In this document: positions 941-8,510 of the stretch, in pieces | Numbering within the stretch: the first letter of the stretch is position 1 | Layout: each line of letters opens with the position of its first letter | Origin: a virus | Lineage: Duplodnaviria > Heunggongvirae > Uroviricota > Caudoviricetes | Reading direction: 5' to 3' (one strand) | IMG/VR virus record: IMGVR_UViG_2648501498_000017 | Coordinates: 1 to 8,570 of that record | Length of the DNA stretch: 8,570 bases | The notes under the pieces: generated by a model | Database searches by the model: none | Told to the model about the DNA's origin: nothing | What the model saw: only the letters and a program-made list of their open reading frames with translations | Made by a program: the position numbers and the translations under genes

Positions 941-1474
941 ATGGCTACTACCAACTGTATTACTGTACTTACTGCTCGTGGTTTAACAGAGATTTTGAAC
1001 ACAGGGGGAAGCCAAGCATGGAGACTTGACGCCAGCCATGCAGCTAAGCACGAATATTTAGTTTGTGTACAAAATTCGAGAAAGGACTGGGGATCACAAG
1101 AAGCAAAACATCATCATGCTTTTATGATCGGTCGAATCTCGGGAGTAAGCAGGGCTCCAGAAAACCCTAAACGCTGGATCATAAACATCAATTCTTATGC
1201 TGAAATTGACATCCCAGGACAATGGGATGGCAATCGGAATCCCGTTTCTTATCGCAACCTCAAAGACATTGGCATTGAGGCTGACAAGTTGGAATTTAAA
1301 GCTCTTCCCAAATTAACCCCGACTAATTCGATTGTCGATCAAGCGGGTGATGAGTACGAAGAAGAAGAAGAAGAAAATGTAGTTAAGCCGTTAACACTTC
1401 AGGAGGCAAAAGCAGGGCTAGCCCTATACTTTGGTGTTAATGAAGAAAATATTCAAATAACTATACAAGGTTAA
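941..1474 (+). CDS. Hypothetical protein, 177 aa, unknown function. Candidate accessory/cargo gene in the P2-family hotspot between gene A and cos.
   Basis: Seen in sequence: ATG-initiated ORF, transcribed opposite to the flanking phage operons, AT-rich. Contains an acidic run DEYEEEEEEN encoded by a (GAA)6 repeat. No family recognised from the sequence. SD is weak (GGGG about 13 nt upstream). Confidence 0.6.
   Translation: MATTNCITVLTARGLTEILNTGGSQAWRLDASHAAKHEYLVCVQNSRKDWGSQEAKHHHAFMIGRISGVSRAPENPKRWIININSYAEIDIPGQWDGNRNPVSYRNLKDIGIEADKLEFKALPKLTPTNSIVDQAGDEYEEEEEENVVKPLTLQEAKAGLALYFGVNEENIQITIQG
1358..1375 (+). repeat. (GAA)6 trinucleotide repeat inside the 177-aa CDS, encoding a polyglutamate run
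   Basis: Seen in sequence: gaagaagaagaagaagaa at 1358-1375, in frame. Confidence 0.9.
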
Positions 1475-1695: not shown

Positions 1696-1745
1696 AACGT
1701 TGCTGACGTCAGAAGCAAGTTCAGACGCCAGCAACGTTTCTTAAT
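1696..1745 (+). terminator. Terminator-like hairpin between the convergent 177-aa gene and the DinI-like gene
   Basis: Seen in sequence: 15-bp stem with one mismatch, AACGTTGCTGACGTC (1696-1710) pairing with GACGCCAGCAACGTT (1724-1738), 13-nt loop, followed on the plus strand by TTCTTAAT. It overlaps the stop codon of the minus-strand DinI-like gene and may act on both strands. Confidence 0.4.
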
Positions 1746-1974
1746 GCAGCCAGCTGTCGTCTTCCCACACCTTCTGCATAATTTTCATCACTTGTTTTCT
1801 TTCTTCGTCCAGTTGCAGTCCGGTCAGTTCCACACCATTAGAGCTACCTTTACGGATACGAATTACCGCTTTGGGATACAGGGGGCGCAGATTGCGGTAA
1901 AGCTCGGATTCAAGGGCGTCCAGGGTAGACTGGCTAATTTTTTGCTCTTTATCGATCATTATTTCAATGCGCAT
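1741..1974 (-). CDS. DinI-family protein (77 aa), resembling the C-terminal DinI-like part of 186 Tum
   Basis: Seen in sequence: MRIEIMIDKEQKISQSTLDALESELYRNLRPLYPKAVIRIRKGSSNGVELTGLQLDEERKQVMKIMQKVWEDDSWLH has DinI length and the conserved ...WE..D.W C-terminus. ATG at 1972-1974 is preceded by GAGGTGA. Lies downstream of a LexA box. The ORF track's longer version (start 2046) is rejected in favour of the SD-supported ATG. Confidence 0.8.
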   Translation of the reverse strand: MRIEIMIDKEQKISQSTLDALESELYRNLRPLYPKAVIRIRKGSSNGVELTGLQLDEERKQVMKIMQKVWEDDSWLH

Positions 1975-1984
1975 AAAAGTCACC

Positions 1985-2173
1985 TCAACTGATGACATCC
2001 ATTGAGCGGCTGTATTCGTGGATTCTGATCTTTGCCATGAGTTCATCAGTCAATTCAGAAACCCACTGCAGAGCCAGCCCCTTCTCTTCATCACTACACT
2101 CACTAGCCGCTACAAGCTTAAGAAAAAAATCAATGCGCTGGAGCTTCAAAGACTCCAAAAAATAGTCCTGCAT
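1985..2173 (-). CDS. Small SOS-regulated protein (62 aa), candidate Tum-like antirepressor N-terminal module
   Basis: Seen in sequence: ATG at 2171-2173 with a strong SD (GGAGGAAAA) and a LexA box 44-59 nt upstream. Its end overlaps the DinI-like gene start by 14 nt in a different frame. The functional call is inference from synteny with the 186 tum locus. Confidence 0.5.
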   Translation of the reverse strand: MQDYFLESLKLQRIDFFLKLVAASECSDEEKGLALQWVSELTDELMAKIRIHEYSRSMDVIS

Positions 2174-2194: not shown

Positions 2195-2260
2195 AGCAAC
2201 ACTGTATGCATAACCACTGTTTATATTTACAGTATATAATAATCTTACTGATGTAAAACG
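2195..2260 (-). promoter_or_regulatory. SOS-regulated promoter region for the tum-like operon (186 p95-like)
   Basis: Seen in sequence: on the minus strand, TTTACA (complement of 2252-2257) and TATACT (complement of 2231-2236), with the LexA box overlapping the -10 region. Spacer is short (15 nt), so the exact hexamers are uncertain. Confidence 0.4.
2217..2232. promoter_or_regulatory. LexA box (SOS box)
   Basis: Seen in sequence: CTGTTTATATTTACAG, a perfect CTGT-N8-ACAG with an AT-rich spacer, matching the consensus CTGT(AT)4ACAG. It sits just upstream of the 62-aa/DinI-like genes. Confidence 0.8.
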
Positions 2261-2326: not shown

Positions 2327-4741
2327 TTAATACAGGTTCCGCCACTGATCATCTTCCTGCAAACGCTGGTTCCGATAGAAGATACGCAGGCCTGCTCCTG
2401 ACGGAATACTGCCTCCGCGAAGGAGTAAATCGACCTCTTTCTCGCTGCCATCAAATCCTCTGGACTTCAGCTCATACACGAGCTGCAGTCGCTGATGGTC
2501 TGTAATTCGCTGTTTGTAGTCTTTACGCCGTTTCGGTTTCACCAGGCGTAACCTTGCTGCCAGTTCCCGGCGCTCTTTTTTGCTCATACTGTGCAGGTAA
2601 TCGTGCAACTCCTTGTCATCCATGCTGGTAATGTCCGTTCTGGAGTCCCCATCAGCTGATTTATCTTTCTCCTGTTGGTTCAAATTTTCAGCAAGGGGAC
2701 AGTTATTGCCACGAGTCCAAGGGGCGCAAGCGCCCTGGTCGGCAGCCGCCTCCTGAACGTCAACGGCCTTACGAACCATTTTCCACTTCACCGCATGAGT
2801 GCAGATCTTGCCCTCTGCAATGGGTGACCAGATGCCATAAATACGAATACCGTGATCGCCATAAGCGGTTGGCTCTTCGTTGATTTCATAAGCGGTTCTG
2901 ATGAGGTGATATTTACGGGGAACCAGTACGCCACCCTGCTTCATGATATAGGTGGCAAAACAACCAGCATCAGCAGCAGCCAGAATGGCATCAAGGCGCG
3001 GGTTATCCAGTACCGGCGCACCTGCTTTTTTGTCACCCTGTTGCCTTGCCGCCTGACCAGCCAGCAATCGCAGTTCACGGTAAGCCTGACGCCCCGGAAT
3101 GCCAAAGAAGCGGAATTGCTGAACACGATGCAGAGACGCCCAGGCATTAACGTATTCAGCGTTATCACGCAGGGATTTACCCGTTTCCTTGCTGATCTCC
3201 CCAGCCAGACCACGCCCGTCAATGTTCTTACTGATGTATTTCGCGATATAGCTTGTTGGCGTACCTTTGCGCGGGTTTATCAGCTCAGACTTAAAGCGTG
3301 GTCCCGTGTTATTGCCCAGCTCCTCGCGGTCTTCACGGATGGCAAACTTACGCAGTAATGCAGTGATGGCGCGGCGGTCTTTTTTACGCATGAAACACAT
3401 GAGATGCCAGTGCACAGTACCGTCATGATGCGGCTCAGCTACCCGCACGCCATACCAGCGCAACTCGGCTTTATGCATAGCCTTACGAAATGCAGCAAAC
3501 ATGCCGACCAGATAATCGCTACTTTGTCTTACCGTCGCGTTTGTCCAGGTCGGGTTTGGTCTGCCGTTATTGAGCGTGGAATGGAAACGCGACGGACAGG
3601 TGATAGTGTAGAAAACGGCACAGTCACTGCGCATTTCCGCGATAAGCTCCAGACCTTTAACACAGGCCATCATCTCATTGCGGCGATGCGCCGGGTTGCT
3701 GCTGCTGGCGTTTACCACATCTTCCATATCCAGCGTGTCGCCGTCTTCGTTCACCAGTTCATGAGAACGAAAAAACTCCAGCGACTTACGGCGCTGCTCA
3801 CGTTTATGCATCACGGCTTCATAGCTGACATAGGGGGATGCTTTTTTGCTGACCAGGCAGACAGCACGCAACTGCTCTTCCCGCCATTCGCAACGCATCT
3901 TCCATAATTTCCGATACCACCAGTCGGCACACAACATACGCGCCAGCGAACCCGGGATGAGTTCATAGGGCACTGGTTTGCGGCGGTTTCTTTTCCGACG
4001 AAGTTTCTCAAACGCAGGCGGGATAACATCCAGACGCAGGGTTTCCGCTGCCACCTTTTCCCATGTCTTGCGGATTTCTTCTGGCTTAACGTCATCGGTG
4101 GCATACAAATCACCACAAGCGTCCTCAAGACACATGCTCATATGCGCTGCTACCAGGGTGGACAGGCGTTTCACCTGATCCTGGCTCATTTCAGGCAGGA
4201 TCAGCAGACCCTCCAGCCCTTGATGGCTTGCCATAAAACGGAAAGAAACAGATAGCTGACTGTCACGTACACAATCCAGTCGCTCCAGACATGGCTTAAT
4301 CGTCTCACGCAAATAGCGGGAATAAGCCTTTGGCCTGCCCAGGCTGCTGAAGTATTCAATACGTTGCATCAGCGGCTTGCTGATATGGGAAGGCTGGGCG
4401 TTTACGTCCGCCAGAATGACCATGTCCGGATTAAAACGCTGCTGCTCATGCGCCAGCTTTGCCCGGCTAATGAGCTTATCCTGCTCCATTTCGCGCTGGA
4501 CAGGATCACGGGATTCATTAAAGAAATAACGCTCCCAGACCTGCTCACTCAGTGCCTCGCGGCGCAGTTGTTCCTGCTCGTTATCGGCAGCGTACAGAGT
4601 GATCAGGTTTGAAAGTGCAGACTCCGGCGCAACTTCCGCCGGGTCCAGATAAGGGTTAATGGCCTTTTTCGAGCCGTTCCATGAAAATGCTGCGGCGGCC
4701 TCGTTAAAGCCGCTGCAATTGTTCATATCGTCATGACTCAT
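2327..4741 (-). CDS. A: Replication initiation endonuclease gpA (P2/186 gene A family; rolling-circle HUH nickase), 804 aa
   Basis: Seen in sequence: HUH-type motif TVHWHLMCF (HWH codons at 3404-3412) and paired catalytic tyrosines [10 protein letters not shown] (3236-3250), resembling the phiX174/P2 A-protein YxxKY active site. Size matches P2 gpA (about 760 aa). The ATG at 4739-4741 overlaps the dam stop as ATGA. The GTG-initiated start at 4747 in the ORF track is rejected. Confidence 0.9.
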
Positions 4742-5595
4742 ACACACACTCTGTACACGGCAGAACTATCCACGCCACGCGAAGGATCAAATCCCAACCA
4801 GCAGCTCGGCCCGGAAACAGCAATGATTTCTGTTGCAGATTTACCCTCGCCAGCTGACACGCCGATGCTGCGTTTTGCCTTGATATAGTGGTGAGTAAAA
4901 TTGCGATACAGCGAACGAATCAGGGATGTGTCATTGTTAGAAACAATGACCGGATGTCCTTCTGATGACCGATGTTCAAGAATGGATGCCAGGTGATACT
5001 GGTCATCTTCAGTGAAACCATCAGTGTGATAGCCGGAAAACGTACCGTCATACGGCGGATCGCAATACACCACATCCCCCACCTGCAGCATCGCCAGCGT
5101 TTCATCAAAGCTCGCGCAGATAAACGTTGCCCGCTGGGCTTTCTCTGCAAATGCGCGAATTTCTTTTTCAGGGAAATACGGATTTTTATAATTACCGTAG
5201 GGAATGTTGAAATACCCGCTCTTGTTATAGCGACATAAACCACGGTAACCGTGACGATTGAGATATAGGAAATATATCGCCTTCATGAAATCAGTAATTT
5301 CAGTTGAGTAATTAAACTCCTGTCTTATGTTGTAATAAGCCAGCTCACTGTTTGCTTCCTCAAATAAAACTTTGGCACGAGATATAAACGCTTCGCAATC
5401 AGCGGCAATCTTTTTATAGAGGTTGATTAAATCAGGATTAATATCCGCAACCAGATAGCTGGGGTAATCCGTCGCCATCATCACAGCACAAGAACCCGCG
5501 AAAGGTTCAACCAGTCGCGGGCCAGCAGGAAGGTATTTTTTCAGTTCGGACATAATGGCGGTTTTATTACCCGCCCATTTCAGGATGGTGCTCAT
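4738..5595 (-). CDS. dam: DNA adenine methyltransferase (Dam/D12 class, N6-adenine), 285 aa
   Basis: Seen in sequence: N-terminal [11 protein letters not shown]...EPFAGSCAV (AdoMet-binding motif) and the catalytic DPPY in [13 protein letters not shown] at 5593-5595 with GGAGG upstream, overlapping the upstream stop as ATGA. The longer version in the ORF track (start 5655) is rejected. Confidence 0.9.
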
Positions 5596-7497: not shown

Positions 7498-7521
7498 GAT
7501 AAAAGTTCACTTGGAGTGACC

Positions 7522-8091
7522 ATGAATTTGGAGAAAGGCGGACGAGGCGCTATAGAGCGCATGGTAGAAGCTTATGGATTCAAGACTCGACAGGCGTTGT
7601 GCGATCATTTAGGAATCTCTAAAAGTACACTCGCCACACGCTACATGCGTGACTCATTCCCAGCAGAATGGGTAATCCAGTGCGCCCTTGAAACAGGCAC
7701 CTCGCTTAATTGGCTCACAACCGGGCATGGTTCAAAGCAAACTTCAGGTAATACAAATACTATGGAAGTTGCTAAATATGTATTATCTGATGGGGCCTTG
7801 TGTGAAGACGGTTTTTATATTTTCGATAGAGAATTTCTACCGTCGGCATTCAAGAATCTTTTTGTAATCACAGATAATAATTCTGAATTTATTTGTGATA
7901 AGGAATTTGATGATATACGTGATGGTAAATGGGTAATAAGTATTGATGGCGAAATAACGATCCGTGACATTACTCGTTTACCCGGTGGAAGAATCTTCGT
8001 CGAGGGTGGAAACAGAGCCTTCGAGTGCAAGATAGAAGATGTTGAAATAATTGGGAAAATTATAAGTTTAACAATTAAGTACGTTAGGTAA
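7522..8091 (+). CDS. cI: 186-type CI immunity repressor (189 aa)
   Basis: Seen in sequence: N-terminal HTH region (GFKTRQALCDHLGISKSTLATRYMRDSFPAEWVIQCALETGTSLNWL) and a roughly 190-aa length typical of the 186 CI family (186 CI is 192 aa; P2 C is only 99 aa). Divergent from the apl operon. ATG at 7522 with GGAG 5 nt upstream; the GTG start at 7516 in the track is rejected. Confidence 0.85.
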   Translation: MNLEKGGRGAIERMVEAYGFKTRQALCDHLGISKSTLATRYMRDSFPAEWVIQCALETGTSLNWLTTGHGSKQTSGNTNTMEVAKYVLSDGALCEDGFYIFDREFLPSAFKNLFVITDNNSEFICDKEFDDIRDGKWVISIDGEITIRDITRLPGGRIFVEGGNRAFECKIEDVEIIGKIISLTIKYVR

Positions 8092-8298: not shown

Positions 8299-8478
8299 AT
8301 TTTGCTTTTATACCTGCGCCTAATATAACAATGAGCCGCAGGCTAACCGCAAAAGTCACATACTCACATAGCAAAAAATAGCTAACTTCATTATGGCTTC
8401 AGTGAGATGTATGGTCGCAGGATTTCATACATTGACACTGGTTATACATACAGTAAAAATGCTCTCTACTGGAGTAAT

Positions 8479-8510
8479 GCCAGTCAGTTAAGCAACTGAC
8501 TGGCTCTTTT
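8479..8510 (+). terminator. Rho-independent terminator
   Basis: Seen in sequence: perfect 10-bp stem CCAGTCAGTT (8479-8488), loop AAGC, AACTGACTGG (8493-8502), followed by CTCTTTTT. Confidence 0.65.

What the first reader, a model, noticed from the sequence alone, without database searches (positions are those of the whole stretch)
1741..2173. Tum-like SOS module present as two overlapping ORFs in different frames
As I recall it, 186 Tum is a single 146-aa antirepressor whose C-terminal half is DinI-like and which is LexA-controlled. Here the DinI-like part (77 aa) and a 62-aa upstream ORF are in different frames, overlapping by 14 nt, and each has its own SD. This could be a natural two-gene arrangement, a frameshift mutation, or a frameshifting site. 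It bears on whether this prophage is SOS-inducible.
Basis: partly seen in the sequence, partly recalled or inferred. Interest (0 to 1): 0.55.

Follow-up and report, generated by a model that had tools for sequence, protein, structure and literature searches.

The report
Split tum antirepressor–DinI SOS operon
This is the ordinary, already described two-gene form (as in Salmonella phages Fels-2 and PSP3) of the SOS-controlled switch that lets 186/P2-like prophages wake up after DNA damage: a small antirepressor gene followed by a separate DinI-like gene, not a broken or frameshifting gene.

Summary
Both ORFs are real, on the minus strand, in different frames. ORF-A is 62 aa (2173..1985). ORF-B is a 77-aa DinI-like protein (1974..1741). 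They do not overlap. A 10-nt spacer separates them, and ORF-A's TGA stop overlaps ORF-B's Shine-Dalgarno site (TGAGGTGACTTTTATG). The reported 14-nt overlap needs a non-conserved upstream ATG at 1998.

The pair follows replication gene A. It has a 186-p95-like promoter whose -10 hexamer is the left half of a LexA box (2234..2215).

ORF-B is 77% identical to PSP3 TumB and 40% identical to 186 Tum residues 71-145. ORF-A has no pairwise BLAST match to Tum. A profile of its family matches the Tum N-terminal family (hhalign 96.9%, E 1e-10). ORF-A is 95% identical to Fels-2 STM2728.

The same two genes occur in 1125 of 5426 complete E. coli genomes and in over 60 phage records. Spacers are 3, 10, 11 or 13 nt, so all frame relations occur. 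Both genes are under purifying selection (dN/dS 0.03-0.23).

Published work already describes split tum in Fels-2 and PSP3. Deleting the E. coli HS gene, whose boundaries match ORF-A's, abolishes mitomycin C induction.

Verdict: a natural two-gene arrangement, already known, and the prophage is very probably SOS-inducible.

The parts
2252..2257 (-). -35 hexamer TTTACA of the p95-like SOS promoter
   Evidence: Read from the sequence. TTTTACA is invariant in 9 related phages. The layout matches the annotated 186 p95 promoter, which has -35 TTCACA, an 18-nt spacer and -10 TACTGT. Here the spacer is 17 nt. The generic promoter scan did not call it because the -10 is weak.
2215..2234 (-). LexA box TACTGTAAATATAAACAGTG (CTGT-N8-ACAG). 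Its left half, TACTGT (2234-2229), doubles as the -10 hexamer.
   Evidence: One mismatch to TACTGT-N8-ACAGTA. CTGT and ACAG are conserved in all aligned relatives. The position is the same as the LexA site annotated over the -10 of 186 p95 and as the box in PSP3 and Fels-2. LexA binding was not tested.
1985..2173 (-). ORF-A: 62-aa Tum/TumA-type antirepressor gene (Fels-2 STM2728 type), with Shine-Dalgarno AGGAGG at 2183-2178
   Evidence: 95% identical to Fels-2 STM2728. Matches phrog_698 at 7e-37. A diverse family profile against the 186 Tum N-terminal family gives hhalign 96.9%, E 1.3e-10; hmmsearch against 186 Tum gives 33.4 bits. dN/dS is 0.06-0.23. AlphaFold2 predicts a two-helix hairpin, pLDDT 89.9. 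The primers used to delete 'tum' in E. coli HS match its start and stop codons.
1975..1984 (-). 10-nt intergenic spacer. ORF-B's Shine-Dalgarno site GAGGTG (1986-1981) overlaps ORF-A's TGA stop, so translational coupling is likely.
   Evidence: Sequence TGAGGTGACTTTTATG. The spacer is 10, 11 or 13 nt in relatives and 3 nt in PSP3, so the frame relation is not conserved.
1741..1974 (-). ORF-B: 77-aa DinI-like protein (tumB type)
   Evidence: Pfam DinI at 7e-23. 77% identical to PSP3 TumB. 40% identical to 186 Tum residues 71-145, with Met1 aligned to the annotated internal GTG start of 186 tum. dN/dS is 0.03-0.10.
1696..1738 (-). Conserved stem-loop just after ORF-B, at the position of the 186 t95a partial terminator. 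It lacks a T-run.
   Evidence: -27.8 kcal/mol, z -5.3. Of 18 consensus pairs, 8 keep pairing through changes on both sides across 8 phages. The 186 record annotates t95a at the equivalent place. Its function here is inferred.
7516..8091 (+). 186-type CI immunity repressor, the presumed target of ORF-A
   Evidence: Pfam Phage_CI_repr (114.5 bits) and Phage_CI_C (93.7 bits). Peptidase_S24 scores below its cut-off (16.7 against 23.3). 32% identical to 186 CI.

Best explanation
The region is the SOS operon of a Fels-2/186-like (Peduoviridae) prophage in its two-gene form.

- In the lysogen, LexA sits on a box that overlaps the -10 of a p95-like promoter downstream of replication gene A.
- DNA damage leads to LexA cleavage, and the operon is transcribed.
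- The first gene (ORF-A, 62 aa, a helical hairpin) is the Tum-type antirepressor. It binds the 186-type CI repressor, which has no self-cleavage domain, and takes it off its operators. That starts lytic development.
- The second gene (ORF-B, 77 aa) is a separate DinI-like protein. Its start is probably coupled to termination of ORF-A. It presumably modulates RecA filaments and SOS induction.
- Phage 186 carries the same two modules fused in one 146-aa Tum. It still has an internal start that makes the DinI-like part alone.

Shown here: gene structure, conservation, purifying selection, homology of both parts, the LexA-box and promoter architecture, and the repressor type. Taken from the literature: the need for this gene and for cleavable LexA for induction (E. 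coli HS), and antirepressor activity (186 Tum, PSP3 upstream gene). Inferred: CI binding by this particular protein, translational coupling, and the role of ORF-B.
For: - Anatomy.
- The same two annotated genes follow gpA in 813R9, SopEPhi, RE2010, SEN8, Klebsiella phages and Fels-2.
- The module is in 1125 of 5426 complete E. coli genomes. PGAP annotates it as 'DinI-like family protein | hypothetical protein | replication endonuclease'.
- Spacers of 3, 10, 11 and 13 nt give all three frame relations.
- dN/dS is 0.03-0.23, and third-position variation falls in each ORF's own frame.
- ORF-B is 77% identical to PSP3 TumB, 40% to the 186 Tum C-terminal half, and matches Pfam DinI.
- ORF-A and the Tum N-terminal region cross-hit PHROG families 698, 8554 and 1993. 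hhalign gives 96.9%, E 1.3e-10, gapless over 4-44 against 4-44; hmmsearch gives 33.4 bits.
- ORF-A is 95% identical to Fels-2 STM2728.
- The PSP3 record annotates tumA ('UV induction of prophage') and tumB.
- Lemire et al. 2011 (PMC3121763) state that Fels-2 and PSP3 have tum split in two, with the upstream gene the antirepressor.
- In E. coli HS, an in-frame deletion of 'tum' or a lexA(Ind-) allele abolishes mitomycin C induction (PMC11195241). The deletion primers match ORF-A's ATG and its stop plus the ORF-B start.
- LexA box. The p95 layout is the same as in 186.
- CI is 186-type without a functional S24 domain.
Against: - ORF-A has no pairwise BLASTP similarity to 186 Tum or PSP3 TumA.
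- PSP3 TumA matches the ORF-A profile only marginally (E 0.015 in a 3-sequence search).
- With shallow alignments, hhalign gave only 14.6% probability.
- ORF-A is 82-97% identical across phages whose CI is only 38-53% identical to this one. That is unexpected for a strictly immunity-specific antirepressor.
- No binding or expression data exist for this prophage.
- The E. coli HS gene sequence itself was not inspected. I saw only the primer sequences and the Fels-2 record's note linking STM2728 to EcHS_A0919.
Confidence: 0.9

Rival explanations
1. A frameshift or nonsense mutation, or a sequencing indel near 1974-1987, has broken a single 186-like tum gene, so the prophage carries a tum pseudogene.
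For: 186 and about 28 phage records do carry a single fused 146-aa tum. One related record (phage 500465-1) shows scattered 1-nt indels in this module, so such errors do occur.
Against: - The junction sequence TGAGGTGACTTTTATG is identical in Fels-2, 813R9, RE2010 and Klebsiella phages.
- The arrangement is present in over a thousand complete E. coli genomes.
- Both ORFs are under purifying selection, each with its own Shine-Dalgarno site and start codon.
- The ORF-A family consists of short proteins. None of the 89 representatives carries a matched region followed by a DinI-length tail.
Confidence: 0.02
2. A programmed ribosomal frameshift, or stop-codon bypass, near the end of ORF-A joins it to the ORF-B frame. 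That frame is open back to 2046. The result would be a fused Tum-like protein in addition to the two separate products.
For: The ORF-B frame is open for 72 nt upstream of its ATG. A weak hairpin (1996-1979) spans the junction.
Against: - The ORF-B frame is +1 relative to ORF-A. There is no prfB-like or slippery motif at AGT TGA G.
- Relatives have spacers of 3, 10, 11 or 13 nt, so the relative frame is not conserved.
- The hairpin and the upstream ATG at 1998 are not conserved.
- Codon-position variation across the last part of ORF-A follows the ORF-A frame.
Confidence: 0.02
3. ORF-A is a small helical protein with another role in the SOS operon, for example modulating LexA, RecA or DinI, or host physiology. 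It is not the CI antirepressor, and induction depends on something else.
For: - The homology to the Tum N-terminal region is remote.
- ORF-A is nearly invariant while CI varies widely.
- It has no Pfam, NCBIfam or PADLOC family.
- Fold search finds only generic helical hairpins.
Against: - Profile-level homology to the antirepressor half of Tum is significant and in register.
- The operon position is the same as tumA and the Tum N-terminal half.
- Deleting the E. coli HS gene bounded by the same start and stop abolishes induction.
- CI lacks a self-cleavage domain, so an antirepressor is needed.
- The CI N-terminal domain is well conserved (56-70%) among phages sharing ORF-A.
Confidence: 0.06

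Closest known systems
Fels-2 STM2728 / STM2726.1 (Salmonella Typhimurium LT2 prophage Fels-2), the split tum locus noted by Bunny, Liu & Roth 2002 as cited in Lemire et al. 2011 (PMC3121763)
   Same: 62-aa gene, 95% identical. Same LexA box, same junction TGAGGTGACTTTTATG, a 10-nt spacer, and a 234-nt DinI-like gene.
   Different: Essentially nothing in the module. The CI repressor and the downstream cargo differ.
PSP3 tumA / tumB (NC_005340)
   Same: Two genes after gene A, behind one LexA box. tumA is 60 aa ('UV induction of prophage'). tumB is 77 aa and 77% identical to ORF-B.
   Different: In PSP3 the two genes are in the same frame, 3 nt apart. PSP3 TumA is a different, highly diverged subfamily: no BLASTP match and a marginal profile match to ORF-A.
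Coliphage 186 Tum (146 aa, LexA-controlled antirepressor; Shearwin, Brumby & Egan 1998, as cited)
   Same: Same operon position, p95-type promoter with the LexA box over the -10, an N-terminal module homologous to ORF-A, and a C-terminal DinI-like module homologous to ORF-B. The 186 internal GTG start at residue 71 aligns with Met1 of ORF-B.
   Different: 186 has one fused reading frame. The N-terminal module is too diverged for pairwise detection. 186 CI is only 32% identical to this CI.
'tum' of the E. coli HS P2-like prophage (Phollow preprint, PMC11195241) and Tum of SopEPhi (Diard et al. 2017, as cited in PMC9827884)
   Same: The HS deletion primers match the ORF-A boundaries. SopEPhi orf10 is 88.7% identical to ORF-A. 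Both prophages are SOS-inducible through tum according to these papers.
   Different: They are different prophages with different CI alleles. No experiment exists for the prophage in this window.
Gifsy-1/2/3 LexA-controlled dinI-antirepressor operons (GfoA/GftA; Lemire et al. 2011)
   Same: A LexA-controlled operon that combines a small antirepressor with a DinI homologue. The repressor is not cleaved.
   Different: The gene order is reversed (dinI first). The antirepressor and repressor families are unrelated, and the phages are lambdoid.

Membership tests
Tum / TumA LexA-controlled antirepressor of 186-like phages | First gene of an operon just downstream of replication gene A, followed by or fused to a DinI-like module | tested here: met
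   gpA lies at 4747..2327, then ORF-A, then ORF-B. The order is the same in 186, PSP3 and Fels-2.
Tum / TumA LexA-controlled antirepressor of 186-like phages | Promoter with a LexA operator overlapping the -10 hexamer | tested here: met
   The box at 2234-2215 has 1 mismatch to the consensus. The layout matches the annotated 186 p95 promoter and LexA site. This is sequence evidence only; binding was not tested.
Tum / TumA LexA-controlled antirepressor of 186-like phages | Sequence homology to the N-terminal ~45 residues of 186 Tum | tested here: met
   Not met by BLASTP. Met by profiles: PHROG cross-hits, hhalign 96.9% / E 1.3e-10, and hmmsearch 33.4 bits.
Tum / TumA LexA-controlled antirepressor of 186-like phages | Cognate 186-type CI repressor that is not RecA-cleavable | tested here: met
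   PF07022 and PF16452 match. Peptidase_S24 is below its cut-off. Absence of cleavage is inferred from the domain content.
Tum / TumA LexA-controlled antirepressor of 186-like phages | Binds CI and prevents operator binding | not testable with these tools
   Shown biochemically for 186 Tum only (Shearwin et al. 1998, cited).
Tum / TumA LexA-controlled antirepressor of 186-like phages | Required for SOS (UV or mitomycin C) induction of the prophage | not testable with these tools
   Shown for the E. coli HS gene with matching boundaries (PMC11195241). Not shown for this prophage.
DinI-like family (Pfam PF06183) | Match to the family model above its gathering score, over the full domain | tested here: met
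   81.2 bits against a cut-off of 24.2, covering profile positions 1-63 of 63.
Chromosomal DinI equivalog (NCBIfam NF007893) | Score above the equivalog cut-off | tested here: not met
   41.8 bits against a cut-off of 111. ORF-B is a phage TumB-type paralogue, not the host dinI.
DinI-like family (Pfam PF06183) | Binds RecA filaments and modulates SOS | not testable with these tools
   The 186 record notes that truncated Tum 'modulates SOS induction'. There are no data for ORF-B.
Programmed ribosomal frameshift site | Conserved slippery motif and conserved frame relation between the two ORFs | tested here: not met
   No motif at the junction. Spacers of 3, 10, 11 and 13 nt give all three frame relations.

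The most novel reading that the evidence does not exclude
The Fels-2-type TumA (ORF-A) is a nearly invariant antirepressor of broad specificity. It recognises the conserved N-terminal DNA-binding domain of otherwise diverged 186-type CI repressors. One induced prophage could then cross-induce heteroimmune Fels-2-like prophages in the same cell.

The evidence allows this but does not test it. ORF-A is 82-97% identical across phages of at least six named genera. Their CI N-terminal domains are 56-70% identical to this one, and their C-terminal domains only 24-39%.
Probability: 0.2. Interest if true: 0.4.

Novelty: already known. Interest (0 to 1): 0.1.

Why it matters
The prophage has an intact, LexA-controlled antirepressor module and a non-cleavable 186-type repressor, so it should be inducible by DNA damage, like Fels-2, SopEPhi and the E. 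coli HS prophage.

The only added value is for annotation. The 62-aa gene is still labelled 'hypothetical protein' in over a thousand complete E. coli genomes, and 'Levan regulatory protein' in one UniRef entry. It has no Pfam or NCBIfam model. It can nonetheless be linked to the Tum N-terminal module by profile methods and to published deletion experiments.

Tried and rejected
- BLASTP of ORF-A against 186 Tum and PSP3 TumA found nothing.
- hhalign with shallow, near-identical alignments gave only 14.6% probability. A diverse alignment from the representative search was needed.
- Pfam, NCBIfam and PADLOC gave no family for ORF-A.
- A PDB sequence search with the ORF-A profile found nothing. 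For 186 Tum, only DinI itself (1GHH, 7YWA) matches.
- Foldseek of the AlphaFold2 model against the PDB returned only generic helical hairpins, best E 0.8. This was uninformative.
- The generic sigma-70 scan called no promoter. The promoter was instead assigned by comparison with the annotated 186 p95.
- The hairpin that sequesters ORF-B's Shine-Dalgarno site (1996-1979) is not conserved in relatives. I rejected it as a regulatory element.
- A second LexA box next to the first (around 2196-2215) has 4 mismatches and lacks the left CTG. I rejected it as a canonical box, although ATACAGT is conserved.
- Rfam found nothing relevant in the window.
- Bunny et al. 2002 (PMC151935) could not be read. 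It is cited only through Lemire et al. 2011.
- The test of whether Tum type follows the CI N-terminal domain in the 186 group was inconclusive. Both CI domains are similarly conserved there: 92% against 85%, and 73% against 71%.

Full report
**What is there.** All the genes concerned lie on the minus strand.

- ORF-A runs 2173..1985 and encodes 62 aa. Its ATG is at 2173-2171, its TGA at 1987-1985, and AGGAGG at 2183-2178 serves as its Shine-Dalgarno site.
- ORF-B runs 1974..1741 and encodes 77 aa. Its ATG is at 1974-1972.
- The junction reads TGAGGTGACTTTTATG. ORF-A's stop codon overlaps ORF-B's Shine-Dalgarno site (GAGGTG, 1986-1981).
- Ten nucleotides (1984-1975) separate the two genes, and they are in different frames.

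That would give 85 aa, not 77. This ATG has no Shine-Dalgarno site and is replaced by ACG or ACA in SopEPhi and ST437phi4.1.

**Context.** The window is the early region of a 186/Fels-2-like (Peduoviridae) prophage.

- CI repressor at 7516-8091. It matches Pfam Phage_CI_repr and Phage_CI_C. Peptidase_S24 scores below its cut-off.
- A CII-family protein, DUF5347, DUF2732, a DksA/TraR zinc finger and a Dam-type methyltransferase.
- Replication protein A at 4747..2327.

The two ORFs follow gene A, exactly where tum lies in phage 186. Upstream of ORF-A the sequence reads TTTACA (2257-2252), 17 nt, then TACTGT (2234-2229). TACTGT is the left half of a LexA box, TACTGTAAATATAAACAGTG (2234-2215), which has one mismatch to the consensus. 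The annotated 186 p95 promoter has the same design: TTCACA, 18 nt, then TACTGT, with the LexA site starting at the -10. TTTTACA and the CTGT/ACAG half-sites are conserved in nine related phages.

**Are they real, separate genes?** Yes. Five lines of evidence agree.

- The 800-bp module is found in 67 phage records and in 1125 of 5426 complete E. coli genomes. PGAP annotates it there as 'DinI-like family protein | hypothetical protein | replication endonuclease'.
- Phage records annotate a 189-nt gene followed by a 234-nt gene.
- The spacer is 10 nt in this window, 813R9, RE2010, ST512phi13.2 and Fels-2. It is 11 nt in SopEPhi, SEN8 and ST437phi4.1, 13 nt in ST13phi12.1, and 3 nt in PSP3. All three frame relations therefore occur, and a Shine-Dalgarno site is always kept.
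- Variable sites fall mainly on third codon positions of each ORF's own frame: 12/5/33 for ORF-A and 20/9/51 for ORF-B. dN/dS against seven relatives is 0.06-0.23 for ORF-A and 0.03-0.10 for ORF-B.
- A profile search of 1.84 billion representative proteins found 89 relatives of ORF-A. Nearly all are 50-90 aa. In the few longer ones the match sits at the C-terminal end or inside, and none has a DinI-length tail after it.

These results exclude a recent frameshift mutation or a sequencing indel. They give no support to programmed frameshifting: the junction has no slippery or prfB-like motif, and neither the frame relation nor the small junction hairpin is conserved.

**What the two proteins are.**

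ORF-B is a DinI-like protein.

- Pfam PF06183 scores 81.2 bits against a cut-off of 24.2.
- It is 77% identical to PSP3 TumB over its full length.
- It is 40% identical to residues 71-145 of 186 Tum.
- It is not the host DinI equivalog (41.8 bits against a cut-off of 111).
- Its Met1 aligns with residue 71 of 186 Tum. That residue is the internal GTG start which the 186 record annotates as producing 'truncated Tum - modulates SOS induction'. So 186 also makes the DinI-like part on its own.

ORF-A has no BLASTP match to 186 Tum or PSP3 TumA and no Pfam or NCBIfam family. Profile methods do link it to Tum.

- ORF-A is phrog_698 (7e-37) and also hits phrog_8554 and phrog_1993.
- The first 70 residues of 186 Tum hit phrog_1993 (1.5e-23), phrog_8554 (3e-12) and phrog_698 (6e-6, positions 6-44 on 6-44).
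- A diverse ORF-A family alignment, built only from hits to an ORF-A-family profile, was compared with the 186 Tum N-terminal family. hhalign gave 96.9% probability, E 1.3e-10, gapless over positions 4-44 on 4-44. hmmsearch against 186 Tum gave 33.4 bits.
- The shared core is E-x4-[QE]R[IV]-x-[LMF][FIV]-x-[RK]L-x5-C-x6-[LI]A[LI]-x-[WL][IV][AS]E[LI].

AlphaFold2 predicts a two-helix hairpin (H2-23, H28-61; pLDDT 89.9). Fold and PDB searches were uninformative.

**Link to published work.**

- ORF-A is 95% identical (59 of 62) to Fels-2 STM2728. Fels-2 has the same LexA box, the same junction and the same 10-nt spacer.
- Lemire et al. 2011 (PMC3121763) state that 186 Tum looks like a fusion of an antirepressor and DinI. 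[quoted passage not shown] They cite Bunny, Liu & Roth 2002 and a personal communication from G. E. Christie.
- The PSP3 record annotates tumA ('similar to 5' end 186 tum; UV induction of prophage') and tumB.
- In the Phollow preprint (PMC11195241), an in-frame deletion fused the start and stop codons of 'tum' in the P2-like prophage of E. coli HS. That deletion, or a lexA(Ind-) allele, abolished mitomycin C-induced lysis and virion formation.
- The deletion primers match this window. GTGGTGTCATAGGAGGAAAGATG ends on ORF-A's ATG (2193-2171, one mismatch). TGAGGTGACTTTTATGCGCATTG starts on ORF-A's stop codon (1987-1965, exact). The gene deleted there is therefore bounded by the same start and stop as ORF-A.
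- SopEPhi orf10 is 88.7% identical to ORF-A. A review attributes SopEPhi induction to Tum, citing Diard et al. 2017 (PMC9827884).

**Mechanism.**

- Shown here: a LexA-box promoter of the 186 p95 type, two separately translated conserved genes, homology of the first to the antirepressor half of Tum and of the second to DinI/TumB, and a 186-type CI without a self-cleavage domain.
- From the literature: LexA cleavage derepresses tum, and Tum binds CI and prevents operator binding (186). The ORF-A-type gene is needed for induction (E. coli HS).
- Inferred: this ORF-A binds this CI. ORF-B translation is coupled to ORF-A termination. ORF-B tunes RecA/SOS.
- The stem-loop after ORF-B (1738-1696; -27.8 kcal/mol, z -5.3; 8 of 18 pairs with compensatory changes) sits where 186 has the partial terminator t95a. 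It has no T-run, so its role is uncertain.

**An unexpected detail.** ORF-A is 82-97% identical in phages of several genera whose CI is only 38-53% identical to this one.

- Within those CIs, the N-terminal DNA-binding domain is 56-70% identical and the C-terminal domain only 24-39%. That is compatible with ORF-A recognising the N-terminal domain, and with cross-induction between heteroimmune relatives.
- In the 186 group both CI domains are similarly conserved. The pattern is suggestive only.

**Fused and split forms.** In the phage collection, a fused 146-aa Tum occurs in about 28 records (186, BIS20, some Klebsiella, Yersinia pestis and Erwinia phages). The same-frame split form occurs in PSP3, SEN1, Midge and SW9. 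The Fels-2 type seen in this window is the commonest. ESSI-2-like phages have a TumA-like gene with no DinI partner.

**Verdict.** This is a natural two-gene tum operon of the Fels-2 type. It is already described and experimentally supported in close relatives. It is not a frameshift mutation or a frameshifting site. The prophage is very probably SOS-inducible. Interest is low. The residual value is that the 62-aa gene remains unnamed in genome annotation.

Noticed in passing
window 8431-8510 (+): A near-consensus sigma-70 promoter, TTGACA-16 nt-TAAAAT, has a good LexA box (CACTGGTTATACATACAGTA, 8436-8455, 2 mismatches) filling its spacer. A strong hairpin with a T-run follows at 8479-8504 (core stem; the fold as a whole -24.2 kcal/mol, z -5.5). 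In a related prophage the integrase gene starts 11 nt after the point (8474) where similarity to this window ends. This may be an SOS-controlled promoter ahead of int, or in this window a very short transcript. Rfam has no match.
   Followed up: partly
window 1696-1738 (-): A conserved stem-loop lies just after the DinI-like gene, with compensatory base changes across phages (8 of 18 pairs). It sits at the position of the 186 t95a terminator but has no T-run. The conserved GGTTGAACAAC follows it.
   Followed up: partly
window 7516-8091 (+), compared with L013-L018: Among phages sharing a nearly identical ORF-A, the CI N-terminal HTH domain is 56-70% identical to this one and the C-terminal domain only 24-39%. 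A long stretch, SKST[LM]A.R..RD.FPA[ED]W[VI]IQC.LETG, is almost invariant.
   Followed up: partly
window 941-1474 (+): A 177-aa ORF on the opposite strand downstream of the tum operon belongs to phrog_37247 (unknown function). It has no significant Pfam match and no PADLOC match. In relatives, this slot between the tum operon and the portal gene holds variable cargo (a TIR-domain protein in phage 500465-1, a Hypoth_Ymh protein in 813R9), so it may be a defence or moron hotspot.
   Followed up: partly
L011 (NC_049342, phage 500465-1) 599-1231: This record has several single-base indels in the tum module relative to all other relatives. They produce aberrant annotated CDSs of 291 and 318 nt and are probably sequencing errors.
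   Followed up: no
L004 (NC_049395, phage ESSI2_ev015) 1501-1713: ESSI-2-like phages carry a 70-aa TumA-like gene (49% identical to ORF-A; 93.7 bits to the family profile) after gene A. No DinI-like gene follows it. An opposite-strand regulator gene overlaps its end instead.
   Followed up: no
window 2196-2215 (-): Directly after the LexA box, the element GGTTATGCATACAGT is conserved (ATACAGT is invariant in 9 phages). It resembles a right half-site without a canonical left CTG, and it resembles the box at 8436-8455. It may be a weak second LexA site or a feature near the transcription start.
   Followed up: no
one search hit list (186 Tum N-terminal homologues): The 120 best database homologues of the first 70 residues of 186 Tum are 62-123 aa long, and none is 146 aa. 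Some 63-aa proteins are named 'Tum protein'. Split forms therefore seem common even among close relatives of the 186 N-terminal module. Gene-calling and listing limits were not examined.
   Followed up: no
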